A stretch of 64,000 nt of DNA, from the NCBI GenBank assembly GCA_050084985.1, contig JBITNC010000001.1:70494001-70558000 (forward strand), read 5' to 3'. The stretch comes from Nageia nagi (Eukaryota; Plantae; Pinophyta). Position numbers and translations under genes: made by a program. Below, piece by piece: positions 1 through 62,025 of this stretch. Every line of letters starts with the position of its first letter. The stretch's first letter is position 1. The notes beneath the pieces are model-generated. The model saw only the letters and a program-made list of their open reading frames with translations. It was not told where the DNA came from and searched no databases.

Positions 1-1068
1 TAAAGTATCCACCACAAATGCAATTATGATAATATGATATGGTAATCTATTGGTCACAATGCTTAATACAATGAAGAAGGATACTATCAAAAGATTTCTT
101 GTAGAGGACATCCCCTAAAAATGCATACTAAGTGGCTTGATACTTAAAATCTTGCTTCTTAATAGGATACATATAAGGAGGAAGGGTATTCCACTTAAGG
201 TACTCATGAAGCTTCTTATACCATAAGTCTTGAGACTTGATCAAAATCTTATTAACACTAGCTTTGATGAGGGAAGAAGGAAAAAGTGACTTGAGAGATG
301 ACTCCTTGAAAGTCACAACTTCCATGTGATAGATATATCAATGAGGATTAGGTGGGATGAGTTACCCTAAAAATGCCATGGTATCTACAAACACATTGGA
401 TGACCTAGGGGATGAATTGATCTTATGGGATTTTAAGCACTTGAGGAGTTTGACAACCTCCCCTCTATAATACTTGAGGAGTTCATTATTATACTAATAA
501 ACTATGAGGATTTGGTTAATGATTAAAAGAAAATTAACATATATCATGAGTCTCTCGATCTTGAGCTTGATAATAGTACTAAGATCTAGAATTAAGGCTT
601 CATGCTTTGCATTATTATTGGTATAAGGGAAATCCAACTTAAAGGAATAAAGGATAGGGATGCCATAAGGTATAAATAAGATAACTCCTGCACCACCCCC
701 TTGCTCACACTTCAATCCATAGAAATACATGGTCATGTCAAAGTCCTTATGAGTGTAAACAAACTTTTCCTCTTTGTAAATCTTAAAGATATCCTTGCTA
801 GGGAGATTGATATCTAGAGGATAATTATTTGAAGAGGGTGCTTCAACCAACTAATCTGTGATGACCTAACCCTTAACAAATATCTAGCTAACAACATTAA
901 CATCAAACTTTGATAAGAACATAAGCCATTTATATGTTCAATAATTATGATAAGTCTTGCTCATCATGTAATGGAGTGGATTAACATGAAAAATTACACA
1001 TATATATATGATTACACATGTAATGATGTAATTTCTTTGCTACAAAAATGATGATAAGGTAAAGATTA
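1..1068 (-). mobile_element. Degenerate Ty3/Gypsy (Tat/Ogre-type) pol fragment: end of RT-RNase H, additional RNase H (aRH), start of integrase
   Basis: ORF 494..850 reads MYFYG..CEQGGGAGVIL...YSFKLDFPYTNNNAKHEALILDL (aRH-type). Upstream (~1010-1050) AKKLHHYM is RNase H-like. Downstream (1-35) YHNCICGGYF is the integrase zinc finger. Truncated by the window edge and the gap. Confidence 0.85.
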
Positions 1069-1168
1069 NNNNNNNNNNNNNNNNNNNNNNNNNNNNNNNN
1101 NNNNNNNNNNNNNNNNNNNNNNNNNNNNNNNNNNNNNNNNNNNNNNNNNNNNNNNNNNNNNNNNNNNN
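1069..1168. other. Assembly gap (100 N)
   Basis: Run of exactly 100 N; contiguity across it is not established. Confidence 0.99.
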
Positions 1169-1540
1169 GGAGTAGTGGTCTAAATAAATAATAAGTTAAA
1201 ACATTAAGAGTATTTAACTTTAGCAACATTGGCTTCCTTTCTTTCAAGGAGTACTAGTTCAAAAAAATAAAAAAACTTTACATATTTAGAGAGTGGTTTC
1301 CATAGAAAATTCTAAGTTTGATTTGGCCTCAAGAGAAGGATTTGTAGATAGATTAAGGTTTTAAGGAAATTTAAGGTTCTAGATAGACCTAAGCTTTGAA
1401 TGAACCCAAAATTTGAAGACAACATTTATCATTCCCACAAGAAAAAATTTCACATTGTTGTTGTATTATTTTAGTTCACCTAATATTTATATTCCAAATT
1501 TACTTGTAAAAACTTTGCTTCAACATATTTTTCTTTCTTG

Positions 1541-3413
1541 ATGATAAATTTAACAATAAATACAATCATGAGCATGCTCTTAGGAATCTCTAGTATCGAC
1601 ACTATTTGGCAAATTACATCTATAGACTTGATCCAACATTCTTCCTCGATATTCACCAAATATTGAGCCCAACTCTCATATGGTTTGCATTCACATCATG
1701 CTTTACTTCCTATCGAAAATAACATTGATGTTGCTAAAGAAGCATTGAAGGAAGGCACTATTATTCAATTGTAAGAATATACATCCAAAAATTACCAAAA
1801 TTATATGTAAGTTCATACTTTTGTGTCTTTTCCCTTTATAGCTTATTTCCCATCTGCAATTATTTTTGTAATCATTCATGCCATTTAAATGCATGGATAT
1901 TGTAATCAATCATGTTGCCAAACTTCATAATAGTTTGCCACTTATTGGAGCTTTGAATCCTCTCCTTAAAGCTTCAAGCTATGTTCCATTAACTTCTTCT
2001 CAATACCCTTCATAATCTTTGCAATCTAGTTCTCCTCTTTCACAGGAACAAAGTTCTTGCAATCAATAGCAAGATGGACCCACTTTGCAGCTAACACCCA
2101 TTAATGCATTAACTCCATATCTTAGAAATTGGTCCATTAAAGGAAGCTCTTTAGCAAGAAATTAAAATCCATGAATATCATAATGCAAAATATGATGTAC
2201 AAGTTTTTAAGTTTGATCTCATTGATATGGATTGTTTTGAAATACATGTGACTTACTTCAATGAGGTTGCTAACAAGTTCTACAATGTTGTTTAGACAAA
2301 TTCCATTTACATTATTTCTAGTGATCACCTTAAAGAGGAAAAAAAATAATATAGCACCTCAACACACCCTTATCAAATATTTCTCACCATGTCATCAACA
2401 ATAAGTGGTTCACCATCTCTTGAAATTGCTATACCAATGATAATTTCACATATAAAGAACATAGATACATTGGTTTATTGGCTTGATAAATCCTTGGTTG
2501 ATATGATTGGTATACTTTATTTTATTTCTACTTCCATCAACTCTAAGTAGAAAATATGGCACTAAAACAAAAAGATGATTATAAATATCATGGATATTTC
2601 AGGTTTTACCATTGATTTTAACCTATGGGGTCATCATTGTGAAGGTGAAGGTAAACAACTTATTGATAAGTATAAGAAGATAATGCCTACAATTGTTCTA
2701 TCAAATATAGATGTTTAACCTCTTGGTAAGAAAAAAATATAGATTGTATCTATTCAACCACCATTCATATAAATCTAAAGTTAGAAGAGGCATTGATATT
2801 GAGAGCATGGTATTCAGCTTTGGATAGTAACTAGCCTCTTGTTTCAATTTCTAGCAATCGTGATTCCATAGCCAGCTTTGAGAATCTAATAAAATTGGTG
2901 AAATCATTGGTAAAAATTCCTAGCAAAACATAATGTCTATATTAAAGACATAATTTCCACACTCTACCTTGATAACTTTTATTATCTTTCTTGCTCTCAA
3001 GTTGTTGATGGCAAAAAATGTAAGAAAAAAGTTGAAAAAATTGGCATAAATACTTACAAATGCCCTCAATGTCCAGCTGAATGTGACTTTAACTATGTAC
3101 TAAAAATGAATATTCAAGATGACATAGGTGAGCTTCTAAAAGCAACCACATTTGAAGGGCCTACAAATACATTATTAGGTGTTGGACTCAAAGATTTCTT
3201 ATTGTTACTGATAGAACTAGATGTTGCTCATGATGTTCTTGACAAAGTTGTGAATTACCAATTCTTGATTCAGCTATCCATCATTATGAAATATTTCTCT
3301 AGACAAGATTTACAAAGCATTGTAATTATAGCCTTCAAAGCCATCTAGACATATTTTGATTGTAGTTTCCAAAGCTAGATCAACATTTTTGCATTTGGTG
3401 TGTATAGATTATA
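1541..3413 (+). pseudogene. RPA1: Replication protein A 70-kDa subunit (RPA70) pseudogene with all four OB domains
   Basis: Manual translation. N-terminal OB from ATG 1541: MINLTINTIMSMLLG...QLSYGLHSHHALL...LKEGTIIQL*EY, then a GTAAG donor at 1807. DBD-A ~2090-2340: LTPINALTPYLRNWSIKG...VFKFDLIDMDCFEIHVTYFNEVANKFY. DBD-B ~2560-2815: IMDISGFTIDFNLWGHHCEGEGKQL...EEALILRAWY. DBD-C with zinc ribbon ~2990-3348: CSQVVDGKKCKKKV...CPQC..CDFNYVLKMNIQDDIG. Several stops and frameshifts. Confidence 0.88.
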
Positions 3414-3780
3414 AATATGGCTTACAGATGATAAACTATGTTATACTTATAATCCTTTTCATTGTAAAAGGTTTCATGAAGATTTTAAAACACTTTTTTT
3501 CTAATGCTTTTTAGAAAAAGTATATACCTACTACAATAATATTATATTATTTTTGTATATGTGATATTGTATTATGACATGTTGTTACATGAAAAAATAT
3601 CATTATAAATTATACAATCAACATATTGAACATGTGTAAGATTATTTTCCCTTTTTATGTTCAATTACCTTAGAATTTCATTTCCTACTTTCGTTTTTTA
3701 CAATTTCACATGTGGCCTCATTATTTTTTGACTCAAAAATGGCATTGTTAATATTATCCTTAGCATTTCATTCATCAAAA

Positions 3781-6700
3781 ATGGAAAACCAATCAGCTCA
3801 AGAAAAAAAGGATCATAGAAATCAAATTCATCATGCACATTACCAGGTAAGAAAATAAACCATTAATGCAAGAAGTGAGAGCTATGACATATGAAGGAAA
3901 ATATCATAAGTAATCATGAAGCTTCCTTCTCATCTAATCCCCTTCCTTTGTAAGAACCTATTCCTGAAATGTGTTTGCAAAATCAGTAAGCTCTACTATT
4001 TTCTATAGAATATTTATTTGCTAGAAATAATTTTCAATCAAAATTGGATAACCTTGTAAACATGTCTACATGTGTCATGTGTATAGAAAAATATCCAAAA
4101 ATTAAAACTAGGTAGCACAATGTTCATTCTACTTGTTACCAATGCATCTCTGAAAAAATGACCATTGCTTTTCTATATCAAATAACATGGATCCTAGAGA
4201 GCAACCAGTTTGTTTAAAGTACTTACTCAAATTGATGAAATGTTGATAGCAAGAGTTAGCCCCGTGATTTAGGTTACTTATGCAAGAGAGGTTCAACTAA
4301 AATACAGTTGTCACACTATTTTTTTCCCCTCAAGATATTTCTTCAATTACAACTCAATCACCAAGGCACTTAGATGCATTGGATATTCTTATAGTTAATA
4401 AAAAGAATATCAAAGACCAATGATACAACTTCTATGTTAGCAAAAAACATATTTATGAAGCATTGTCAATACAAAATTAAATTTGATCCATACTACAAAG
4501 ATGTCTAGATAGATGAATATGCATTATCATTTTTTGCTTGATATATCAACAAACATCTCTAGTATTTTGTATACAACATGTTTGAATCCTGAATCAGTTG
4601 ATGCAAACCTCATGGAAATCGAAGACTTGGATAATGATATGCTACAAGAAAATAATCATATAGCAAGTTCTTTCATGGTAAACCTTACCCCTACATGTAC
4701 AATAGTTCAATAATTTTGATCATTATTACATCTAAGGGAAAGGAATCCAGCTTCAACATTGAATGGCCACCATTCACACTATCACCTATAAATGACTAAA
4801 AATTGAAGGGTTGTTTATAATGGCATTTCCTACTTTGTTTCCAACTAGAGCAACATCATTTGGACAACAAATATTCAAAGAAGTCAAGTTACATGAATAT
4901 GCTCACACTTGATTTGGTACCATGACAACAAATTTGGCCAGCATGCACATTTCTAATACTTTATGCTTACTATAATTATGCATCATTAAAGTCAAGCAAC
5001 AACATCTCTTTTTGCTTGTAGAAGTATCAAATTTTATCGATCATAATTGAATACCTTCGACAAATATTAAAATGACATACCAAATGATAAACTTATCAAT
5101 CATCTTATGCATTTTGACTCAACTATAAATGGTACAAGGCCATTTTGGAATCATTGCATCGTAGAAATTTTAGATATGATAAATCAAGTTGGATACCCCA
5201 CTTTATTTTTTACCCTTAGTGTAAAAGATACAAAATGGCTAGACCTACATGCTATGATGCCATCTATGATAGCCGTAACTCCTCAAATAGCTTCTAAATG
5301 GAGGATACAAAATATTATTCAAAATTTGCACCTCATAGCATTGTACATGCACCATAGGTTCACTCATTCAATGAAACCATTCAGTAACACTTCTTAATGC
5401 AAACAACCATTGGTATAGGTATTACACTACTTATTTCAATTCCTTAAACTAGCTTTATCATTTACCTACTAGCTAAAAGTTTCTCCCTATAGGATTGAAT
5501 GACAACACAAAGGTTTAACTCATATCCATGGCTTCCTTTGGTTGAAAGGCACACCTAACATTACTAAACTAGATTGGAATAATATTCAATCTGTACAAAA
5601 TGTAATCAATTACTTTGATAGATATGTATCAAGTTGGAACCATCAACCCATTTCATAACAAGAACAAACATCTTCTTCCATACTGTTCATGATCCTTTTT
5701 TGCTAGACACACAAAGATTTTGAAAAGTAAACCAATTGCTGATTACAATGAGCTTGTCAATTATGTTGAACATCATACAAAATGTACATTACAAACATGC
5801 TTATGTAAAGTAGTCATGATGTTGAATATGTTAAAAGCCCCTTAGAACCTCCAACAGACCTCTACACTTGAAATTGATGAAAATGGCTAGCCCAAATACA
5901 CTCCTACTCTAATGATGATAGATTGAATCTCCACAACCCTAAATGCTCTCAATTTGGAGAGCCAATCTAGATTGCAAAGCTATCATCTCAATTGATGCAA
6001 TCCTCAAATACATTGCAAAGTATGCAACAAAAGTAGAGAATAAATCTAAAACTTCCATCAACGCTATCCCTTTTATTTCAACCACTTATGAACCACAAGA
6101 CCAATCACAGATGCTTTTCAAAAAATGCTTGTTGATAACATAGGTGACTGTGATATTTTTGCCTAGGAAGCTAGCCACCTTTTGCAAAAATTACCACTCA
6201 CAATATGTAGTCAAAATTTTTTTTTTAAATTTAAACCAGATTAACTTACAATGTATTCCACTTTCATCCTCTTCCAACCACTTCAAAAATTTTATTGATG
6301 CATACATAGTATGACCAACATATCAGCAAGAAATGCCACTCATTGAAGTTTTTAGAAGATGTACATACAAAGATATCGTAAATTTGTGCAGTGGAAACAA
6401 CATTCAATATTAGCAATTGTTAGAGTCTCACCATGCTTTACAACAACTCCTTAAAAAGATGAAAGATTTATCATATTTTTTTTCTAACAGAGCTACTTTT
6501 ATAACATCCTTCCATAATATAGAAAATGACTTTGGAACAAATGAAGATGACATTATTGCAAATTGGGAGATATTTTAGAATTGTTACCATCCATGGCATG
6601 TACATTGAACAATAATGCAACGAAATTGAAGATACAATTGAAGAATCCTCAACTCTCCCCAACATATGGAATTACAACAAAATGAGCAAAGTGAGTGGCA

Positions 6701-8250
6701 AATCTTATCATCTATGCACCCAAGAAACCCTTTCCATTTAGATGAAATTGACATGCTTGATCATCATACTTGGATGTTAACTACAATTGGGATACTTCAA
6801 TGTTTACTCCAGAGAAAAAAATAATGGGTTCTATTTTCATTGATGAAAATCATTGTACATTTCAATTTCCACCCACTTCCATTATAAACACATTTGATGG
6901 TTGTCTACAAATCTACAAGAAGCATTTGACATAGTCAAATCGCATATAACTACAAATTATTTACAACCACCTCTTAGGATGATCATTCAAGGAATAATAG
7001 GAACAAGGAAATCACATTTAATGAAAAGCATCAAGTTTTTGTTTTCCAATTCAACAAAATAAGGAGAATCTCCATTATTAGTTCTTACACCTACATGTGT
7101 TGCAGCTTTCAATATAGGTACCTCAACAATTCATTTCACATTTCAAATGCCCATAAAAAATATGCAACCCTTGACTAGACAATCACTTGCAAAATTCCAA
7201 GAAAAAATGCTTCACATTAAATACATTATTATCGATGAGATGAGCTTCATTGGTCCAAAGCTTTTGAAACTCATGGATAGAAGATTCCATGAGGCCTTTC
7301 CCACACATAACCAAACTCCATTTGGAGGTCAATCAATAATACTCTTCGATGACCTACCCAGCTACTGCCCCTCAAAGACATCCCCATGTATGCTTGAGCT
7401 TCCTATGGGGAGAAACTATGAAACACCTTCACAATAGTGGTAACATTGGATCAAATTTTTTTATGAAAATGGTGACAATCCAAAATAGATTCGATTCCAT
7501 ACACTACTAAATAATCTACGCAATGCAAAACTTGTGGTTGTAGATTAGGAATTGCTGATGTTAAGATCATTCTCAAACCTCACAAATGATGAACAATCTA
7601 CGTTCCTTTCCTCCATGCACCTTTTTGTAACAAATGAGATGGTTTCTAATAATAATAAATGAATGTTTTTATCTCTTGCAAAACCAATCACCATTTTCAA
7701 TACAAAAAAATACAAGGATCAATCAGTTTCATCTAGAAGATGAACAACTCCAAGCACAACTATTGCTCTGTATTGACTAGTAGGTTATGTTATATTCAAA
7801 TTTGTGGGTGGAAATAGGTCTTGTAAATGGTGCACTTGGACAAGTAAAATCAATCATTTATAAGGATGGTGAGAAGTTGCCTCAACTCTCCCTTTTTGTT
7901 ATTTTCTAATTCAAACAATACATAGGCCCTCCTTAGGATGAAAATAATCCACAAAATGTTCCTATAACTCCATTAAGTTGTGGTCGATGTCGACAAATCC
8001 CACTGAAAATGGCATTGGCATTGACAATACACAAACCACAAAGACTTACACTTGAAAGAGAAACTATTGATATTGGGAGCATTAACTATCAAGAACTCAC
8101 TTTCATAACTTTTTCGAGAGTTCATGCACTTCATTGCTTTTGCATTCAACCTTCCTTCACTTTCAAAAGATATGTAAGGATGCAATAAGGTCCACATGTG
8201 CATCACCATAAGAGTGAGGAGCAGCATTTGCTATCGTTATCAAATGCTGG
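3781..8250 (+). pseudogene. Helitron2/Helentron-type RepHel pseudogene (Cys cluster, DUF6570-like domain, HUH Rep, Pif1/SF1B helicase)
   Basis: CVMC..CYQC ~4070-4150; NNMDPREQPVCL..LTQIDEMLIARV...HTIFFPQ ~4180-4335 (DUF6570-like). Rep motif 1 GYPTLFFTLS..DTKW (~5190), motif 2 WYRIE*QHKGLTHIHGFLWL (5411-5545, spliced), motif 3 KYIAKYATK (~6010). Helicase: QGIIGTRKS (Walker A), VLTPTCVAAFNIG, IIIDEMSFIG, PFGGQSIILF, NLWVEIGLVNGALG, QIPLKMALALTIHK.Q.LTL, FSRV. Confidence 0.92.
5419..5492 (+). other. 74-nt GT-AG intron splitting Rep motif 2
   Basis: TGG TAT AG|gt...ttctccctatag|G ATT GAA; removing it joins WYR to IE*QHKG.HIHGFLWL in frame. Confidence 0.8.
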
Positions 8251-9369
8251 CAAATATTTTCTTAAACAGATCAAAATATTTTTTAATAGTTTTGCTACAA
8301 ATATTATTAGCAACACAATATCACTACAAATTACTTCAAATATTTTGAAAAAATCATGTACTCGAGTTTAAATATATTGCATATAATAGTTATGATGAAA
8401 CATTGCTTTTAAGAAATAAAATTTCCTTCACGTTTGCGTTTTCATTTTCAACTACAAATGACATTTTCTTTTACAATTACTATTATTTTCTCCTATATCT
8501 AACTTGCTCTATTATCATTTTTGTGCAAATCTAACATCTCCCTTGTCTAATTTTTAGGATTAAAGACAATGGAGAAAATAAAAAATTCCTCCACACATGT
8601 TCATGTATGAATTTTGCTAAACTTCACATGAGATTGAAAAATAGAAAAATTGTCATACTATGTTACAATAGAGCTATAGATACCCTATGTATAGATGGAG
8701 TTTCCGAGAACCTTTTCATGGCATACACAATATTTGAGGAACAGGAAAAGAAAAATAGTGCATTCTCTTCATGCCTACTTGTTCCAAAACAAATACAGTA
8801 AGATTACAACATAGATCACATTATTGAACTCTAATTATATTCTTGCATTACAACTTTACATTTAATCAACTATCATTCAAAAGGCTAAACAATTTGCCTT
8901 CGTTTGTGCAGGTGACCTTCGAGTTTCAACAACTTTTTGGGTGTTCTACAATTTCAAATTGCAATATGTACATATTTTGAAAACTTTGTTGTTACCTTCG
9001 ACTTTCAGCAATAGCTTCTTTTTTATTTTGCAATTTAAAATTGCAATATGTCTTACAATTTAAAAAATGCAACGTGTACATTATATATCTCACTTTTGTC
9101 TACTTACACATTTTTCAAACATAATGACTTCCACTTTTATTTGCATTAAGATTTTCTATTTACTTCACATATTTTGCATAGTATTGTTGACTTTCCCTAC
9201 AAGAACAATCTCTTGCTTCTCATAACATTGCATATGATGATCTTGTCTTCCATGATAATTCACAAGCACAACATTCTTACGTGTACCCGTCCCACAAGGT
9301 TGAGATAGGTAGTAAATATTTAATGACATAATAATTGTATGAATCATGAATTGTTTTTATTTTCTAGAT

Positions 9370-10230
9370 GCAAGCATCGAGTAGCCAAAAGAAATCTACA
9401 TTTAAATAAGAAAATCAGAAAATACACAGGTCCACAGGCAGCCACTAGCTCACCATACACAGCTGAATATGCTGAATTAATTCTATCTAGTACTTGTGGG
9501 GCTGAGTATAGGCTGAATTTTCAATGTTGCGTAGGTGGTAAGGTCAAAGAGTCCGAATGTTACCTTGCGTGACCAGTGGAGATGGAATAAAACCCAAAAA
9601 TGGCACTTCCATGACACGACTCAACATTTACTATTGAGGGCAGCGATAGACAGCGATTGCTTTCAGGCGAGGTGAGGTGTCCTAAAGTTGGCATCCTTGT
9701 ATTATTATATCTGTTCATTATTCTGAACGCTACCCAACAATGGAAGATGATAAATACAGTCACTTAACTCCTACCCATATATTTTGAGAAGTTGAAGGCA
9801 CCTACTGTTCGTAAGTTGATCTTCTCCACAAGATCAGATCTGTAACATTTTCCAACAATAGCATCCACGAAATCTAAATGATGCTACAAAATATCATGAA
9901 AGACAAGATTTTGAGAACAAACGATGATTAAATTATAATTGCGGTGCAACATTTTAAGAACTTTACAAGCTTAACAAACACTGCATGTTCACGAATCACA
10001 ACTTTCGCAGCAAAAGATAATGAAAGCGATAGACTAAACCGAAATTTAACAGAATTATTTGGATGCATAGAGATATCGTATTGTGAAATAATACAACAAT
10101 ATATGAAAGTTTATAGGTTTAAATTTGACCATAAACATTATACGTTTATCAAAATCCTACTACCACTTGACGCTCAATCCTTCCACTCCATTCGATTAGA
10201 TCATGTGCATATATCAATCGATTTTCAGCA
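9370..10230. other. CpG/CWG-retaining segment of unknown nature (possibly a hypomethylated regulatory region)
   Basis: About 22 CG dinucleotides counted in ~850 bp plus many CAG/CTG, against only a few per kb in the flanking elements. No recognisable protein. Confidence 0.5.
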
Positions 10231-11489
10231 AGAATTTAATATTATGTATATATGATTATATATATTATGTGTATATATCAAATATATTTTCTACCATCTA
10301 CTTTTCAACAAGAATGATTTAGGTGTGTATATCAAATATATTTCTAGAAACCCAATTCCATACAATGCACAATATTTGGTGTTTATATATGCACATAATA
10401 TACCAATTTAATATATAATACGCATATAATATACCTTATATGCTCACAATATACCAATATAATAAATAATTCAATTAAAAAAATATTAAATTCTTCTTAA
10501 ACATTATACTTTCTTTCTTTCTTTATCATGATATACACATAACACTTTATACCATACACATAATTTAGTTATATGCTTGCATAATTTACTTATATAGTAT
10601 ACAATTTAATTTTTTCCTAAATAAAATAATTTCTATTAATGAAGCCTAATTGTATATATATTTACAAAATTTGGTCAATACTACAAAAGTGGTAATACAT
10701 TATTTTTAATACTATGAAACCAATGTCCATGAGAGATGCAAAATAATATAAACTAATCAATGCCTTCTGAGGTGAGAATGTAGGATGAGAGAATGATTTG
10801 TAGTGATAAAGAGCAAAGGCCTGGACATTAGTTGAATTCATTTTAGGTTAACGATAAACATACAACAATATTTCATTCACTTTGTAACATATTCTAAATG
10901 TCAAAGAGATAATACTGAGGATGCCCAATCTATTGAGACCTAGTAGGATTGCGGACAAAGAATTAGAGGTTAGAAAAATGTAACCCACTCTAACAATAGT
11001 GCACATTCTAGGAGCAAATCTGCTATGGAAAATTTGATTTTCATAGTGAGACATAGCTTTGGACCTTGGATATACCTAAAAAAGGTTGAGAAGTTATGCT
11101 TCAAAATGTGACCATAATAGGTTAGAAGATTAGTACTTTTTTAAAAGATACCATTGTTCCTTTGAATCCAAATTACCCACACAAGCATTGTTAGAGGTAT
11201 AAAATACTGGGATTTGAATACCTTACATGTTGTAGTCAGGTTCCATTGAATGAGGAGGTTTAGGATAGATGTTGGGTAGACCCATGAGCACCCAAATTTT
11301 GATAGAAGACATCCCCATGGAGAGAGTATGCAAAGTCAAATTAGAGGAAATAAAGGTCATTGGATTCTTCTACTAAATCACACATGATGTACTTGAAAGA
11401 AGATGTAATTACATGCCTTTTGCAAAGTTGGACTCATTTGAGAAATTTATTATGTATTTCTAACCATAAAGGAAAGAAAGAAAGTATAT

Positions 11490-13370
11490 TAATTTCCTTA
11501 GGTGACCAAAAGTGATCAATGGGACTAGAAAGTACAATCATGTAAATGAAGCCAACAAGCCCCTAGTGGGGCCTCTAAAGAAAATATAAAAGAATTAACA
11601 ACTACAACCATACAAGAGATACTTGGTCCTAAAAGAAAGAAGGGATACAAAAACTAAGGCTCCCTAGGCCATGTCGCTTAGGATAGCATTGGGGGAGTGT
11701 ATGATAGTGATTTTTACTATAGGGAGAGCTCATGCATGATCATTATAAGATGTGTTTATGATACTACTTTTGGAAGAGAAGAAGGCTCTGAACTGACACA
11801 TCTACGAAGGAACCTTGACACTCTATGTATGTCTCTTGGTTTGATGTGTTGGATGTAGGTGCTGATATCGATGTCTTCTACGAGCTCACTCAAGGGAAGA
11901 GGCATGAGAAAAGGACATGATGAGTTGATCCCCAAGTGGTTATTAAGCTCAAGCTAGAATTCATTGCTATAAGAGGAGGGCTTATCAAAAGTACATAGCC
12001 AAACATCATTGATAAGGATAATAGATGAATGTTCTTAGAGAGTTATGTGAGTCTCAAAAAAGGAAATAATAGCATTCTTGTATATCATAATAAACCAAAA
12101 ATTAGAAAATGAAATGGATATCAAACTCAATCTCAAAAGAGAAAAGGCAACAAACTTAAAGGTCTCTATCTATGTGATGATTGTCTCGATCCTCAATTGG
12201 TGTGAACATACTCGAAATTGACTAGGGGCTAATCTCAAGCTAAGAGGAAGATGCAAGCTAATGTATCTAGATGGCTAGATCAACCACTTATCTAACTAAA
12301 GGTAATGATGAGCATAATGGTCTAGTTTGGGCATCAACGGTTGCAAGGGAGACACTTTAGTAACTTGAATATAAGATCTATAGATAGCCTCATAAATTGC
12401 TTTATAGGAGGCTACTACCTCCTATGATGAACTCATAGGAGGTGAGAGAAGACTATCTAATGAGAAATCAAATATCTAAATCATCTCAAAGACCTCAAAA
12501 AACTAGCATCAATGGTAACCTTGGGCGAACAAGTTGATCAAGGAAGATAGGGCTCTAACTAGGAGTCTACCATTCCCATAGGAAGATAAATTATGAATAT
12601 GATGAAGAAAGAGGACTATGAAAATGAGTTCCCAAACTAGAAGAGGTTGGCATCAAATTTTGTAAGAATAATAGGATGTGGGACTATCCTCTTACTCTAG
12701 ATGAAGCATGATAGGAAGGTGATCAAGATCCTCTCTATCAATGTCCAATCAACTACCAACAAGTTGGGTCCCTAAACCTCTAGTCTATATAAGGTTATAG
12801 TATGACTAGAATTTGGAATAACTCTAACTTGGATAGAACATCTTGGAAGTGTAATTGGAAGCACTACCTCTCTAAATTAGATAAGGTCGCATATCCTTGA
12901 TGAACTTTGGGTGGTGCTGCTAACCTAATGAAGAATTTGGGACCCAAGAAGAGCACTCCCAAGTACATATAAGAGGAGGTAGTCTCTATACTACTATTGT
13001 AAAAGTTGATCTATGTTTGGTCCATCATGGCCTTCAAAATATTAAAGGCCACAACCTTAGCATTGCTAAGGTTCACTACCAACTCTTTCCTAACATTGAA
13101 TCTATCAAGAGCATTGAGTAAAGCCTATTGACCCTTAATCGAGTGAAATAACAATACAATGTCATCAACAAAAAGAAGTAAAGAAAATCTACTACCATGA
13201 AGAAGGAATCCATACTCAGAACCTATAGTCTCAAGGATAAAGGACTCCAAATCATCTATATATAACCCAAACAAAGCCAAAGCGAGAGGGCAACCTTGAT
13301 TCACCCCTATGTTGCTAAGAACACTATCAGGGGAGGCATGGGATTTGGATGGTCAATTGAGAAGGTCTTA
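11490..13370 (-). mobile_element. 5'-truncated RTE/RTE-X-type LINE inserted in the L1
   Basis: GVNQGCPLALALFGLYIDDL...LLLFVDDIVL (~13150-13310), YMYLGVLF (~12960), C-terminal HQLRIET...HF.F (~12060-12210). Boundaries approximate; no TSD found. Confidence 0.75.
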
Positions 13371-28900: not shown

Positions 28901-30236
28901 CACCATTGATATTAAGAGGCACCACATCAACCACAACTTCATCAATGAAGTTCTTTGCTATTGCAAACACCAACTTGAATTATCTAGTTACTTGCATTTG
29001 AGTTCCATGATTCAGCCAACCCAAAGGATAGGAATGAGGATGAGCAACAGTCTCTAACTTCATCCTATTAACCCAAGTTTCTACAATAATATTGGCCTGA
29101 GAACTAGGGTCAAAGATAGCATCAATTCTGGTCTGCTTAACTTGGATCTTGAGATGAAATAATTTTATTTTATTTTTATTTTTCAGTTGCAACATCTTTT
29201 CTCTATGTATTAGTACAAATTATCTCATTATCAACATCAAAACTATCTTCTACTATTTCTCCTTTTTTCACTATTTCAGTCTTCTTATACTATTTCTTTC
29301 CCTTCTTAGTTCCCATTTTGGTATTGTATTTGGATGAAGTTTCCAACAAATAGTATCATTATATCCATGTTTATTACAACGAGAACAATTCTTGTCAAAT
29401 TTTATGGCTATAGTGTTATTTTTCTCTTGCTTATTCTTTTTCCCCTTGTCTTGGGTTTTACCTTTCTCTTGTTGTCCACTTGAACTAACACCTTTGGAGT
29501 TCTCATATTTCCTTCTTTGTTTTCCACATTCTTCAAAATAATGTGCTTGCACACACACTTTATCAAGGTTAGTATGATAAAAAAATATAAGTATTTTTTG
29601 CAAATGATAATGCAAACCTTTAATATACTTCATTAGCAAACTTGTATCTTTCAAAGAAATTCCCAACATGATGGCTTGTATTCTAAATACTGTAGTGTAT
29701 TCTTGGATATATTAGCCTTTTTGTTATCTCATGGATTATCATTTCATCAATTATTTCTTGTAATACCCAAGGGATAGAATTTCTCCTTCAACAAATACTT
29801 AAAATCCTTCTACAAAGAAATAGGTGGTAAATTTTCATGCCTTAATGATTCAATATTGGCTTCCCACTAAATCAAAGCATGTTCTAATTTCAACCTAGCA
29901 AATGAGATTTTTGCAAGATCACCAACAACACCTTATACTTGGAAGTACACTTCTAGTTTATTCAACGGTTTCAATTTTTTTGCATCCACCTCTCCTCCAA
30001 AAGTTGGAATCTTTACCTTGGCCTCAATTTTAAAAGGTAAACAATGAACATGTGGTGTAGTTGATGATTGAACACTATCTTATCTTCATCCAATCTAATG
30101 TATCTCTTCTCTAGACTATCTTGCCATCATTTCAATTAGTCTTGATATATTGGTATCCATTATAATAAATCTCCTTTGGAAATTTATGTTTGATTGGAAA
30201 GCTTGAGGAGGCTCTTCTTCATGAAGATCATCAATG
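25970..30236 (-). pseudogene. Chromovirus gag-pol pseudogene
   Basis: Gag with CSRCNKHG....CWKLHP knuckle; protease IDAIFDPSSQAN; RT WIVLPFELYNTPTTFMR...IYLDDILIF; integrase PWESMYIDFMGGLP and GPFKI; chromodomain-like EEIWLVGLKGRLP....WY....VKEFFPHL (~25980-26090). Confidence 0.9.
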
Positions 30237-41598: not shown

Positions 41599-44500
41599 AT
41601 GTGGAAAAATAATTCAATACCTTTGAATTTACAAGGGGTAAGACATAACCTCCCAAAAGAAACTAGAGATCTTAATTTTTCAAGAGATCTATCTAGTAAT
41701 ATGATAGAAGAACTCCTTAAAAATTTCAATACTTATTGTGAGGTAAATGGGTTTGAACATGAAGATGTTGTAATACATATGTTTGTTAAAAATCTTATAG
41801 ATTCAACATTGCATTGCTATAATTCTCTCCCCAATGGATCAATTTCTAGTTGGGATGATCTATTAGATGCATTTCAATCAAGATTCAAAAGTCAAGTATT
41901 AGGGAAAAAATTAATCAATGAGCTTTTACATATAAAGAAAGAAGATAAAGAGTATATTCTACAACTCATAAATCATTTTAATAAAATATTTCAGAGAATC
42001 CCTAGGAACTTACAACTTGCTAATCTAGTTAAAAAAATGTTTCTTTTTTAATTCCCTAGATCCTGAGTTGGGATACATGGTAATAGTTTGTGAACCTAAG
42101 ACATGTCAAAATCTAGTATATAAAATAGGGTTTTAGGCATTAAAAAATTTTAGATCAAAAAAGAGGCAATTACAAGGATGAGAGGAAGACAATACTTATC
42201 CCTTTAGATAGACCAAAATATTCAACTCTAAATTCTTATTATAATCTTTGTAAGTATGGACATGATCCTAACAATTGTATTACTTTGAATATATTGTAGG
42301 AAATGATTTTAGAGAGTTAAGTATTATTGGGAAATAATGATCTAATCAAACAAGAAGAATTTGATTTGCTTCAAGAAGAAAATAACAAATATACACCATA
42401 AAAATTTCTTTTAGGATAATGATGAATCTTTTGAATGTTATACCATGAAAACTTGATCCCAAACAAAACTTTATACTTAATAGAAAGATAAATATCAAAT
42501 AAAATACAAAGAAATATAAATTGAATAGAGCAAGAAAGACTCTTCTAGTTCTAAATACAACATTGTAGTAGATTTATCTAAGAAGACAACCAATGTCTCA
42601 ATCTTATAAAGCTTACATAATAACCCCTAAGTCATGAAGGAACTCTTAGAGGTTATTAAACTTGCTAAAATATGTGTGAATCTAATCATGGGGAAAGCCA
42701 ATATTAGAGAACATGTTTATGTAGCTCATTAAAAAATGACTAGGCTCCCCCCATTTATATGTCTCTTTGGGTAAATATTAGAAAATTATGCAATTGTATC
42801 TTAGATTAGGGATCTCCAGATAATATTATGACTTTAAAAGTAGCTCATATTTTAAAATTAAATTATACTAAATATGAAAATTCTTGCTTCTAGATGGATT
42901 CATCCAATGTGAAGACAATTGGTAAAGTCAAAGATATCATCATCAACTTATCTGCATTCTCATCTAGAAATATTCTCATGAATATGTTAGTGTTTGATAT
43001 GCACATTACTTATGGGATGTTACTAGGGAGGATGTTTAGAGCCACTATGTGTAGTATGATTTCATTAGATTGGTATTTTGTACAAATGTTAGTCAAATAT
43101 ACATTGCAAATCCTTAAACTAGAAGCCAAACAAAAATGGGTAGTTGTATCTAAAGAAAATAAGTTTGAAGGGAACATTCAAAAGAGTCTCATACATGAAG
43201 TAAATTTACAAGAAAATAAATTGATATATTTTTTTCAAGATGTGAAAATTAGTTCATATCAAGATATTGAATAAGAGCTCAAAAGAGAAATAAATATCAT
43301 AAATTTGAATCATGAGTGGAAGATGTATTTTGATAATAGTAAATTTAGAGAAGGAAATGGAGCAGGTGTTATTTTCATTGTGCCTAATGGAGAAAAGAAA
43401 GTTTATTCAATGAGATTGAGCTTTCACTACACCAATAACATTATTGAATATGAAGCATTATATAAAGGATTAAATATAGCAAAGAAAGAGTTACATATTC
43501 AAAATTTGATTTATTTCAGGGATACAAAATTAATTATCAAATAGGTTAAAAATCAATTTTAGACTAAGAACCCTAAGTTGCAAGATTACAAATATCTTAT
43601 TTAGGATATGACCAAAACCTTTGATTTTTTCAACATAACTACTATTACTCAAAACCAAAATTCTCAAGTAGACACTTTAGCTATATTAGCTTCTATGATA
43701 AAACCAAACCCCTCTCTTAGATTAGGGCATTACTAGATTGAGTTAATTTTTAGGCCAATTGTACCAAATAACATTGAACATTGGTAAGCTTTTAATTTTG
43801 CTAGATAACTCTTATGTTTCCTACAATGCATAGAATAATATTCAATAAGCTTTATGGAATCAAATAAAGTACTGCAATTGGAATTGAATAGAATCCCTTC
43901 CAGAATGATTAAACTAGAGAATCTCTATGATCAAAATGATCACTTCAATCATTAGAGTTTAATCAAAGAGATATCTAAGACTATGATAAATTTTGATCTA
44001 AATCCAAATAGAACACCATAGTAAGTTTTTATTAGCATTGGGTACACTTTAAATGAGTGAGAAGAATTGATTAAAGCATTCAAAATACTTAAGAGTATTT
44101 TTTCTTGGAACTATTATGACTTAAAAGGATTTTTAGCATATTATCCCTGAAGATTCAATCCAAAAATTGAATAAATGATCAAAAAGAAAGTAGAAAAGAT
44201 GCTAGCTTCACATATCATTTATCTAATCAGACATTCTTATTAGGTAGGTAACATTATTCTAGTTCAAAAGAAAATGGATATATCAAAATATGTATCAAAA
44301 TTTGAAATCTCAACTTGACATCCATTAAAGATAATTACTAGTTTCCCATAATGGATCATCCTTTACAAATTGTCAATGGATCTAAAATATTTTCATTATT
44401 AGATGGTTATTCTAGTTACAAATAGATTTGGCTCGTAGAGGAAGATCATTTAAAATAGCATTCACCATGCCTTTGGGTACATTTTCTTACAAGAGGATGC

Positions 44501-58366: not shown

Positions 58367-61010
58367 GCCTAGTCAAACATGAAAAGTATGGAGATATATT
58401 ATATATATTGAAATCTAATTTGAAAGAGTCTTTGATGTATGTATAAACCCTATTTCAAATCCCCCAATTTGGTGCATGCTTTGATAACATTTGTCAAGGT
58501 GAATTGATTTTGCTAGACTACTATTTTTTGTTATATTTGATGAAATAATGTTAATTCCTATCAATAAAGTCATGTCTTATACATCAAAAGTATACACAAA
58601 GATTGTATAACTCTAATATTTTATATATGTAAATTCAAAAAGCTTTTATGTACACATTTGCAAAGTTTTTATTTTCATAACACATTCACATAAATTATGT
58701 CTATATAAAAGCTTCAACATTGTACAAAGTTAGCTTTCATTTCCTAGCACATTTGCAAATTACTTGACATTGTTATATTTTGACTTTATGCTTTAATTTT
58801 CATTCATCCCAAAAGTATCAAATCATATTCAAATTGGGAATTTGTTAACACCAAAAAAAGAATTTTTATTTAATTAAAATACATCTTTTAGGTATTTGAA
58901 ATGATTTATTTAATTAAGTGATTTATTATGCACACCCAACTACCTTTATGTTTTATGATAATAGGTCAACCTAAAGATAAGCCCAAGGAGGAGTGTTAGC
59001 ACATGTGCACCCAAGGAGGAGCTTTAGTACTATGCCTACTATTTATAAATGTGGAAGGGTTGTGCATGAAAAATAATAACATGATCTACAATCCTTGAAA
59101 GGTGGTAATATACTTGGTCCCATTTGATCAGTATTTCTCAAAGTCACCCATCATATCTAGATTTCTTATACTTTGAATTTTGTTATACTCAAAATTTTGT
59201 TACACTCAAAATTTTGCATTCCTAAAACCTTTTGAAATCATAATATGTGATAATTTGATCTTCAAGGAGGAATCGACAATAATGAGCAAGATTCTAAGGT
59301 TTTCTGGAAAGAATGTTGGGCAATTATGCTCCATTTTAAGTAGTGGTGATCTATGAAGGAAACAATGGTGGTCTCATTTCATGGGAGAGGTTTTTCTTCA
59401 ATCTCTTTGGGTTGGATAGTTCTTACAATCATTGTAACATATAAATTAATAGGTTTGTATTTTCATTAATCTAGTTTTGATATGTTAAGGTCAATTTGGT
59501 CAATTATGATCATTATCATATTTCATGTTATTATAAAATTATTATCATTTTGTTATTATTATATTAAATTTAATATATTAAATAACCCTAATATATTATT
59601 ATTTTGTTTATAACAATAATACAAAACTAACTTTATTTAAAATCAAGTTTGATGATAAGATAAGAGCATTATTAATATCGTATTTTCTTTTTTATTGTTG
59701 GAATAACTTTATTATGGTTGTTAGTAATTCTTATTATAACATGAACTTAGTCTTTGATGAAGTTGTTGGAACTTTTCTATGTGAAGACATGAGGATAAAA
59801 TATACAAGTGAAAGTTCTAATGTTTCTATCATGGTTATGAAAAGAGGAAGATCAAGGGAAAGAGAAAGAAGCAAGTTAAGAGGGAAATACAAAAGGAGAT
59901 CACAATCTAAAGGTAAAAAAAAAATTGAATTGTTAGCATTATGATAAAAAATATCACCTTAAAAATGAATGTTGGAATAGAAAGGAAAATGAAAAAAGGA
60001 GAGTAATAATAATAAAATAGTAGTAATCAAGAAGAAAATATAGTCAATAAAATACTACAATATGCATTGGTATTATCTCTTCATAGAAATAGTGGCTATT
60101 ATGGTGGTTGATTATGGTGCTTCCATTCATGCTACTTCACATAAAGAGTAATTTATAAATTATATTCTTGATGACCATGGTCAAGTACTATTTGGTAATG
60201 TCCATCTATTCAATATTATTGTTATTGGAAATATAACATTAGAATTACCTTCTTGCACATAATGGACTTTAAATACAACAAGATACATTACTAATCTTTA
60301 AAAAACTCTTATATCAATAAGTAAATTGGATAATGAAGGATATATTATTACATTTGGTAATTCTACTTGGAAGGTTTCAAATGGTTCAATGGTGTTTGCA
60401 AAGGATAGAATGGTAAGCACTCTTTATTTTGTTACAAATGTATCTAATTACTCCATTAACCTAGTATCCATAGGCAAAGATGAAACTCTATGGAATATCA
60501 AACTTAGACACATGAGTGAAAAGAATATAAAAATTTTACACTTTAATAAGTTTCTTCAAAATATAAAAGAACTTCATATGGAATTCTATGAAATTATGTG
60601 CATGAACAACAAATAAGAGAAAGCTTTTGTAAAAGCAGGCAAAGATAAGAAAAAGGAAAAGTCAAAGTTGGTTCATACAAATGTGTGGGGTTCTACATAA
60701 GTAACTTAATGGCAATTCTTACTTTGTAACTTTTATTGATGACTCTATAAGAAAAATATGGATTTAATGCATTAATAATAAATCATATGTATTTGAAAAA
60801 TTTAATATTTAGAAGGCACTAGTTGAAAATTAAATAGTTTTAAACTTGAAACATCTCAAATTTGATAATGGTAGTGAATTTTGTAGTAAAGAGTGTGATA
60901 CCTTTCATTCATATAATGGAATTATAAGAATAAAGGTAGTTCCAAAAATACATCAAGAAAAATAGGGTTGTAAAATGAATGAATAGGATAATTTTGAAAT
61001 AGGCTAGAAG

Positions 61011-62025
<1,015 letters not shown>

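What the first reader, a model, noticed from the sequence alone, without database searches (positions are those of the whole stretch)
1541..8250. Helitron2/Helentron-type RepHel paired with a full-length RPA70 gene in a seed-plant genome
Seen: a four-domain RPA70 pseudogene lies ~370 bp upstream of, and co-oriented with, a DUF6570-Rep-Pif1 pseudogene, both decayed to a similar degree. Established: canonical plant Helitrons carry RPA70-like genes and have EFQKRGLPH.H in motif 2, whereas DUF6570 with W.R.EWQ.RGS.H.HG.LW is typical of the Helentron/Helitron2 side, best known from fungi, animals and algae. Inference: reversing three transitions (TGA>TGG, AAA>AGA, TTA>TCA) gives EWQHRGSTHIHG. This would be a group-2 rolling-circle element with its own ssDNA-binding protein and no endonuclease after the helicase, possibly an independent RPA acquisition and a poorly described plant lineage.
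Basis: partly seen in the sequence, partly recalled or inferred. Interest (0 to 1): 0.82.

Follow-up and report, generated by a model that had tools for sequence, protein, structure and literature searches.

The report
Conifer-type Helitron carrying its own RPA70

Summary
A four-domain RPA70 pseudogene (1541-3348) lies 432 bp, not ~370, upstream of a co-oriented DUF6570-Rep-Pif1 pseudogene (3781-~8250) with no endonuclease after the helicase. The closest named relatives are from Cryptomeria and Ginkgo. The Rep tree puts it among group-2 (HLE2) proteins, away from Helitron1-motif proteins. The linkage is not chance: contigs from four runs cover RPA, spacer and RepHel alike as one repeat ending near 9310, and an independent, diverged contig (L001) has the same RPA-then-RepHel order. 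But HELIANO (PMC11417382, 2024) already reports HLE2 in two conifers, DUF6570 as HLE2 marker, RPA upstream of RepHel in HLE2, and independent RPA capture. Not found in my searches: this RPA70 scores as core-like, apparently ends ~20 residues early, where the trimerization helix lies, so it likely worked without RPA32/14; the tail holds a likely captured crooked-neck exon; one other copy appears to end in CTAG, as Helitron1 and proto-Helentron do. The 5' end was not found. New member of a known kind; interest 0.33.

The parts
1541..3348 (+). RPA70 (RPA1) pseudogene, domains F, A, B, C with C4 zinc finger; ends about 20 residues short of human RPA70
1807..1894 (+). likely intron of the RPA70 gene (GTAAGT donor; acceptor reads CAT, likely a decayed CAG)
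   Evidence: 88-nt insertion against P0028; sequence
3349..3780 (+). 432-bp AT-rich spacer, part of the repeat
   Evidence: covered by contigs of all 4 runs (bin 3341-3702)
3781..8250 (+). RepHel pseudogene: basic N-terminus, Cys-rich stretch, DUF6570 (about 4150-4530), HUH Rep (FFTLS about 5200; HxH 5521-5529; YIAKY 6009-6023), Pif1 helicase (about 6900-8200); end approximate
5419..5492 (+). likely 74-nt GT-AG intron in the Arg codon of WYR just before Rep motif 2
   Evidence: sequence; about 80-nt insertion; two Cryptomeria gene models (P0005, P0021) lack two residues at this very site
8558..8797 (+). likely captured host exon, HAT-repeat fragment resembling crooked neck (CRNKL1), bounded by AG and GTAAG
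   Evidence: Atlas 0.97, HAT family on 32% of top cluster; PDB crooked neck E 0.059; Pfam gave no HAT hit; strongly covered by other copies; boundaries
9287..9312 (+). candidate 3' terminus: this copy ends GTAG then T; one other copy reads CTAG then T at the same place
   Evidence: cover ends in bin 9270-9320; 19 of 27 ungapped matches of one loose end, p about 4e-4 after 30 offsets; no hairpin in this copy
1169..1540 (+). 5' non-coding part of the repeat; 5' terminus not located (assembly gap at 1069-1168)
   Evidence: covered in all 4 runs; N-run; no sub-terminal inverted repeat found

Best explanation
Window 1169-9312 is one decayed copy of a repeated group-2 Helitron (HLE2) of a likely gymnosperm host, with an RPA70 gene upstream of an endonuclease-less RepHel gene, and the RPA70 likely coated the single strand displaced during rolling-circle transposition. 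Shown: gene order, domains, decay, repeat nature, recurrence of the linkage in a diverged copy, Rep placement. From established knowledge of HUH rolling-circle elements: the Rep tyrosines nick the donor end and the Pif1 helicase peels off one strand that is joined into a new site. Inferred: the RPA70 was once selected (its four DNA-stacking aromatic positions and C4 finger are kept, and it diverged from L001 mostly at third codon positions); it was taken from a core eukaryotic RPA1 gene, separately from the angiosperm Helitron1 RPA; and, because all seven copies seen stop where the C-terminal trimerization helix should begin, it likely acted alone, without host RPA32/RPA14. The element also likely picked up a crooked-neck exon near its 3' end before amplifying. 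This copy is dead.
For: Linkage: L001 has RPA (49% to P0025), a 265-bp spacer and the RepHel start on one strand, with only two short 74-75% DNA matches to the window; 1 of 1 family contigs found. Repeat unit: summed contig depth in X1 is 321-3118 in every bin from 1169 to 9132 against 5 and 0 in the next two bins, same shape in 4 of 4 runs from 3 studies (depth is not copy number). Rep tree, 44 rows: 12 Helitron1-motif proteins on one side 100/100; window with 8 gymnosperm proteins 99/98 inside the GS-motif set. Helicase tree, 29 rows: 4 Helitron1 rows apart 100/100. Selection: window vs L001 differences at codon positions 1/2/3 are 0.35/0.28/0.47 over 232 RPA codons and 0.20/0.22/0.41 over 46 RepHel codons. 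Core-like RPA: P0028 scores 353 bits on TIGR00617 (cut-off 334); its last residue aligns to 596 of 616 of human RPA70; all copies end at the same place; the C-terminal helix is essential for the trimer (PMC8329085, passage).
Against: No listed contig spans the whole spacer of this subfamily, and only one independent locus shows the linkage. The AU test on the helicase did not reject a tree with the gymnosperm and Helitron1 rows on one side (p 0.30, long-branch warning). This copy has L, the Helitron1 letter, in motif 2. The Helitron1 references are unnamed eukaryotic contaminants of prokaryote assemblies picked by motif, none a proven plant element. No terminal inverted repeat or hairpin was found. 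In L001 a GTAAGT donor overlaps the RPA stop, so a further exon with the helix cannot be excluded. The codon-position test used protein-guided local alignments, which lean toward that pattern. Whether the Cryptomeria RPA-like genes sit in elements is unknown.
Confidence: 0.85

Rival explanations
1. RPA70 is inside the element but is a passively captured host gene, like the crooked-neck exon, with no role in transposition.
For: Helitrons capture gene pieces often; HELIANO notes RPA is not always present and may be dispensable; the same element holds a likely passenger exon.
Against: The gene is nearly whole, kept in the same place in a strongly diverged subfamily, diverged mostly at third positions and keeps its DNA-binding residues.
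Confidence: 0.08
2. A host RPA1 pseudogene and a Helitron are chance neighbours, or were co-duplicated in a segmental duplication.
For: Only one independent locus was examined; the 5' end was not found.
Against: L001 repeats the order with a different spacer; RPA, spacer and RepHel are covered alike by many diverged contigs while the flank at 9495-9856 has none; RPA-like copies lie on three different Cryptomeria sequences at 90-98% identity.
Confidence: 0.03
3. It is a canonical Helitron1 whose motifs drifted, or a chimera with a group-2 transposase inside Helitron1 ends.
For: L at the motif-2 site; a possible CTAG-T 3' end; helicase AU test not significant.
Against: DUF6570, WYR before motif 2, S in the closest homologues, YIAKY spacing and the Rep tree all point to group 2. 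A CTAG end alone would fit proto-Helentron, which is group 2.
Confidence: 0.04

Closest known systems
HLE2 subgroup a of HELIANO (Li et al. 2024, PMC11417382)
   Same: DUF6570-Rep-Pif1, no endonuclease, RPA upstream of RepHel, present in land plants; the two conifers sampled have only HLE2 rows in Table S10
   Different: The text does not name the hosts of the RPA-bearing members or describe their RPA, introns or ends; figures 7, 8 and S16 are images I could not see, so this family may be among them
Helitron2 (Bao and Jurka 2013; Fusarium FoHeli, PMC5148889; Helitron-5_SMo listed as Helitron2 in HELIANO Fig. S15 legend)
   Same: group-2 RepHel without endonuclease
   Different: described with asymmetric terminal inverted repeats and hairpins, a single ORF, no RPA in FoHeli; such ends were not found here
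Helentron of mite and Drosophila (Thomas et al. 2014, PMC4067079)
   Same: group-2 Rep signature; separate RPA70-like ORF
   Different: Helentrons have a C-terminal AP endonuclease, absent here; the mite RPA is 358 aa, intronless, with DBD-A and B hits, and Helentron RPAs branch far from core RPA
proto-Helentron of Phytophthora
   Same: group-2 RepHel, no endonuclease, 3' CTAG (tentative here)
   Different: reported only from Phytophthora, carries SET and TIR domains, no RPA mentioned in the passages read
Angiosperm Helitron1 with PHRPA (Roffler et al. 2015, PMC4683698)
   Same: plant rolling-circle element with an RPA70-like gene
   Different: Helitron1 transposase; RPA mostly downstream; PHRPA lies outside the core RPA clade, about 21% mutual identity, 8 exons in Mothra, reported only in monocots and dicots; the protein here passes the core rpa1 cut-off and has one intron

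Membership tests
HLE2 (Helitron2/Helentron group) | HUH Rep fused to Pif1 helicase | tested here: met
HLE2 (Helitron2/Helentron group) | DUF6570 before Rep | tested here: met
   weak in the window fragment (E 0.006), strong in collinear homologues (E 2e-22 to 2e-26)
HLE2 (Helitron2/Helentron group) | (F/Y/W)xR before motif 2 and S after the G of motif 2 (Thomas et al. 2014) | tested here: met
   WYR present across the intron; this copy has L (TTA), its nearest homologues S; 109 of 117 motifs S. Met for the family, not letter for letter in this copy
HLE2 (Helitron2/Helentron group) | Rep groups apart from Helitron1 | tested here: met
   references chosen by motif, tree rooted on them
HLE2 (Helitron2/Helentron group) | Helicase groups apart from Helitron1 | tested here: inconclusive
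   outside the Helitron1 rows 100/100, but AU p 0.30 for a sister position; 4 Helitron1 rows only
HLE2 (Helitron2/Helentron group) | short terminal inverted repeats, 3' stem-loop, T-T insertion | tested here: inconclusive
   none found between 1169-1545 and 8900-9330; 5' end may lie in the gap; no hairpin in this copy
HLE2 subgroup a | place in the HELIANO tree | not testable with these tools
   no subgroup reference sequences available; RPA upstream and no endonuclease fit the description
Helentron in the strict sense | AP endonuclease fused after the helicase | tested here: not met
   8243-9302, three plus frames; homologues end after Pif1
Helitron1 (HLE1) | ExQxRGLPHxH Rep clade, no DUF6570 | tested here: not met
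Helitron1 (HLE1) | 5' TC, hairpin, 3' CTRR, A-T insertion | tested here: inconclusive
   CTAG-T in one other copy, GTAG-T here, no hairpin, 5' end unknown
proto-Helentron | group-2 RepHel without endonuclease and 3' CTAG | tested here: inconclusive
   protein part met; CTAG rests on one contig end
proto-Helentron | 5' TT end, distal 5' stem-loop, SET domain | not testable with these tools
   assembly gap at 1069-1168; no genome held
PHRPA (angiosperm Helitron RPA) | clade outside core RPA1 | tested here: inconclusive
   passes core rpa1 cut-off and has all four domains, against membership; no PHRPA sequence was on hand for a tree
core RPA70 | four OB folds, C4 zinc finger | tested here: met
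core RPA70 | C-terminal trimerization helix | tested here: inconclusive
   7 of 7 sequences stop at human residue about 596 of 616; predicted models too poor; a hidden last exon not excluded

The most novel reading that the evidence does not exclude
Gymnosperms harbour their own RPA-bearing lineage of group-2 Helitrons that captured a core plant RPA1 gene (a capture separate from the angiosperm Helitron1 and animal Helentron RPAs), trimmed off its trimerization helix to make a stand-alone single-strand-binding protein, and ends in a Helitron1-like CTAG, a proto-Helentron-type structure so far reported only from Phytophthora.
Probability: 0.22. Interest if true: 0.58.

Novelty: new member of a known kind. 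Interest (0 to 1): 0.33.

Why it matters
It puts a concrete anatomy on a lineage that HELIANO only counted, and that seems to be the main Helitron type in conifers (only HLE2 rows for both conifers sampled). Annotators should know that multi-copy 'RPA70 E-like' and Pif1-like genes in conifers can be transposon-borne. If the helix loss holds, the long-open question of what Helitron RPA does becomes testable: a core-like RPA70 that cannot join RPA32/14 should bind single-stranded DNA alone and would serve the element without titrating the host complex. If the CTAG end holds, terminal structure and transposase clade are uncoupled in plants too, and tools that look for inverted repeats would miscall these ends.

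Tried and rejected
No whole genome is held, so copies could not be counted. Viral contigs: no RepHel relative, no Helitron1 motif; 120 matches to the candidate 3' motif were chance, 0 of 120 resembled the tail. No second copy or non-autonomous end elsewhere in the window. No sub-terminal inverted repeat beyond AT-rich noise; no significant hairpin in 5 end regions. No RPA fused to RepHel in any fetched RepHel protein. No host or PHRPA RPA in 5 of 5 contaminated assemblies. L002 is a distant RPA70 without RepHel, from another eukaryote. Spacers of window and L001 are not alignable above shuffles (score 54, shuffle max 70). An 86-nt apparent insertion at 6827-6912 was rejected as an intron: P0009 has coding sequence there and other copies show a frameshift at 6898. 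AlphaFold models of P0028 (pLDDT 46) and of the window's DBD-C (pLDDT 48) were too poor to test the missing helix; VIA Z at most 3.5. The first helicase tree lacked Helitron1 rows through a filter error and was redone; one alignment timed out. Trees used about half of the 50-odd long unnamed homologues (every second one). Earlier findings of this scan: none in 3 look-ups. No complex was predicted.

Full report
Observation. The window is AT-rich plant-like DNA with a 100-N gap at 1069-1168 and retrotransposon-like debris elsewhere. Two decayed genes lie on the plus strand. The first (1541-3348) aligns over residues 1-550 of a Cryptomeria japonica 'RPA70 E-like' protein, 44% identical over 549 residues, with Rep-A_N, OB and Rep_fac-A_C matches and a likely intron at 1807-1894. 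The second (3781-about 8250) is a RepHel, 51% identical over 1417 residues to a composite of close homologues, with Helitron_like_N and PIF1 hits and a weak DUF6570 fragment hit that is strong in the collinear homologue. The spacer is 432 bp. A 74-nt GT-AG intron likely splits the WYR triplet just before motif 2; two Cryptomeria gene models lack two residues at this site. Lesion densities of the two genes do not differ significantly (p 0.07-0.53). No Pfam domain below E 0.1 follows the helicase in the plus frames.

Relatives. The best named RepHel hits are Cryptomeria and Ginkgo proteins with DUF6570; the four RPA hits are two Cryptomeria proteins and two unnamed ones, one 74% identical to the window. 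The host is therefore inferred to be a gymnosperm, likely a conifer. Of 117 motif-2 matches in 116 fetched homologues, 109 have S at the site that Thomas et al. (PMC4067079, passages) give as diagnostic for Helentrons, 1 has L. This copy has L, one transition from S, and its nearest homologues have S.

Clade. Helitron1 references were obtained as 23 motif-bearing eukaryotic contaminants of prokaryote assemblies. In the Rep tree (44 rows, 319 columns) the 12 Helitron1-motif rows form one side at 100/100 and the window sits with 8 gymnosperm proteins at 99/98 among the GS-motif rows. In the helicase tree (29 rows) the 4 Helitron1 rows are apart at 100/100 and the 4 gymnosperm rows together at 100/100, but an AU test did not reject putting the two groups on one side (p 0.30; long-branch warning). 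So it is not inside Helitron1; the Rep and DUF6570 make it group 2.

Is RPA part of the element? Yes, by two lines. A metagenome scan with the RPA alignment (17 of 64 parts scanned) gave 2 loci; the one of this family, L001, has RPA, a 265-bp spacer and the start of RepHel on one strand, yet shares only two short 74-75% DNA matches with the window. Second, contigs from 4 runs of 3 studies, mostly under 95% identical, cover every bin from 1169 to 9132, spacer included, and none of 9495-9856; finer laying shows cover ending in 9270-9320. The summed depth is not a copy number and no listed contig spans the whole spacer. Between window and L001 both genes differ most at third codon positions, so both were likely under selection when the subfamilies split.

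The RPA. P0028 passes the curated cut-off of TIGR00617 rpa1 (353 against 334 bits) and keeps aromatic residues at human F238, F269, W361 and F386 (alignment; their role in base stacking is recalled) and the C4 finger. Roffler et al. (PMC4683698, abstract and passages) place angiosperm Helitron RPA outside the core clade and only in monocots and dicots, and Helentron RPA further out still. A separate capture from a core RPA1 is thus likely but untested by tree. Its last residue aligns with 596 of 616 in human RPA70, and all 7 sequences seen end there. The C-terminal helix of each subunit is essential for the trimer (PMC8329085 and PMC10122647, passages); that the missing 20 residues are that helix is inference. 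Structure models were too poor to confirm it, and a splice donor overlaps the stop in L001.

The 3' tail. An AG..GT-bounded 240-nt stretch at 8558-8797, well covered by other copies, resembles HAT repeats of crooked neck (Atlas 0.97; PDB E 0.059; no Pfam support): a likely captured exon. At the end of cover, one loose end from run X4 matches 9287-9313 at 19 of 27 positions after a 6-nt offset (p about 4e-4), reads CTAG then T where the window reads GTAG then T, and differs in the 3 letters visible beyond. This copy folds no hairpin there, and no inverted repeat links the two ends. The 5' end lies before about 1419 or in the gap.

Mechanism. Established for HUH rolling-circle elements: Rep nicks and stays bound through tyrosine, Pif1 unwinds, one strand is displaced and integrated elsewhere. 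Inferred here: the element's RPA70 coated that strand, likely without RPA32/14. This copy can do neither. Confidence 0.85 in the element and linkage; the stand-alone reading about 0.55; the CTAG end about 0.3.

What is known. HELIANO (PMC11417382; sections 22, 23, 24, passages, supplement part 1 and table rows; preprint passages) reports HLE2 in 13 of 74 land-plant species, 3,367 insertions in Taxus and 111,638 in Sequoiadendron, DUF6570 as HLE2 marker, RPA upstream of RepHel in HLE2 and confined to subgroup a, land-plant HLE2 in subgroups a and b, independent RPA capture, and no proto-Helentron-like element in 404 species. Its figures are images that I could not see; they may already show conifer RPA-bearing members. 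Eight literature searches listed no paper whose title or abstract start describes a gymnosperm RPA-bearing HLE2, the helix loss, or a CTAG end in plants; most subscription journals and Repbase are not in the library. Other papers seen as passages: PMC8788227, PMC5148889, PMC4731521, PMC13085455.

Verdict. Real, correctly read by the first stage, and largely anticipated in print. New member of a known kind, interest 0.33; most novel reading 0.22 likely, 0.58 if true.

Noticed in passing
window 8558-8797: Likely captured crooked-neck (CRNKL1-like HAT repeat) exon inside the element's 3' tail, shared by many copies; 9 of 14 listed differences to other copies fall at third codon positions (p 0.017).
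   Followed up: partly
L001:1190-1461: A GTAAGT donor overlaps the RPA stop codon and a pyrimidine-rich AG lies right before the RepHel ATG, hinting that the two genes may share a spliced transcript; the direct join would be out of frame.
   Followed up: partly
window 11472-11750: Start of another very abundant repeat, with many loose ends at 11472 in all four runs; a 20-nt inverted pair 10505-10524 / 11469-11488 is 95% complementary.
   Followed up: no
window 494-850 (minus strand): RNase H-like remnant of a likely LTR retrotransposon left of the gap (RVT_3 E 0.12 only).
   Followed up: partly
window 29271-29711 (-), 41599-43274 (+), 59582-60616 (+): ORF remnants that look like gag, protease and Copia-type pol pieces (read by eye, not searched).
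   Followed up: no
window 61230-61600: About 350-bp (GA)n microsatellite.
   Followed up: no
L003-L025: 23 Helitron1-motif contigs sit in bacterial genome assemblies of GTDB, six in one Dehalococcoidia assembly and four in one Rhodobacteraceae assembly: likely eukaryotic contamination.
   Followed up: partly
proteins P0009, P0029-P0032: A second, nearly intact gymnosperm HLE2 subfamily in Cryptomeria (five members over 90% alike, full 1573-aa RepHel) would be a good source of young copies; its link to RPA is unknown.
   Followed up: partly
L002: An RPA70 gene on a short contig ending in telomere-like repeats, as in a ciliate nanochromosome.
   Followed up: no
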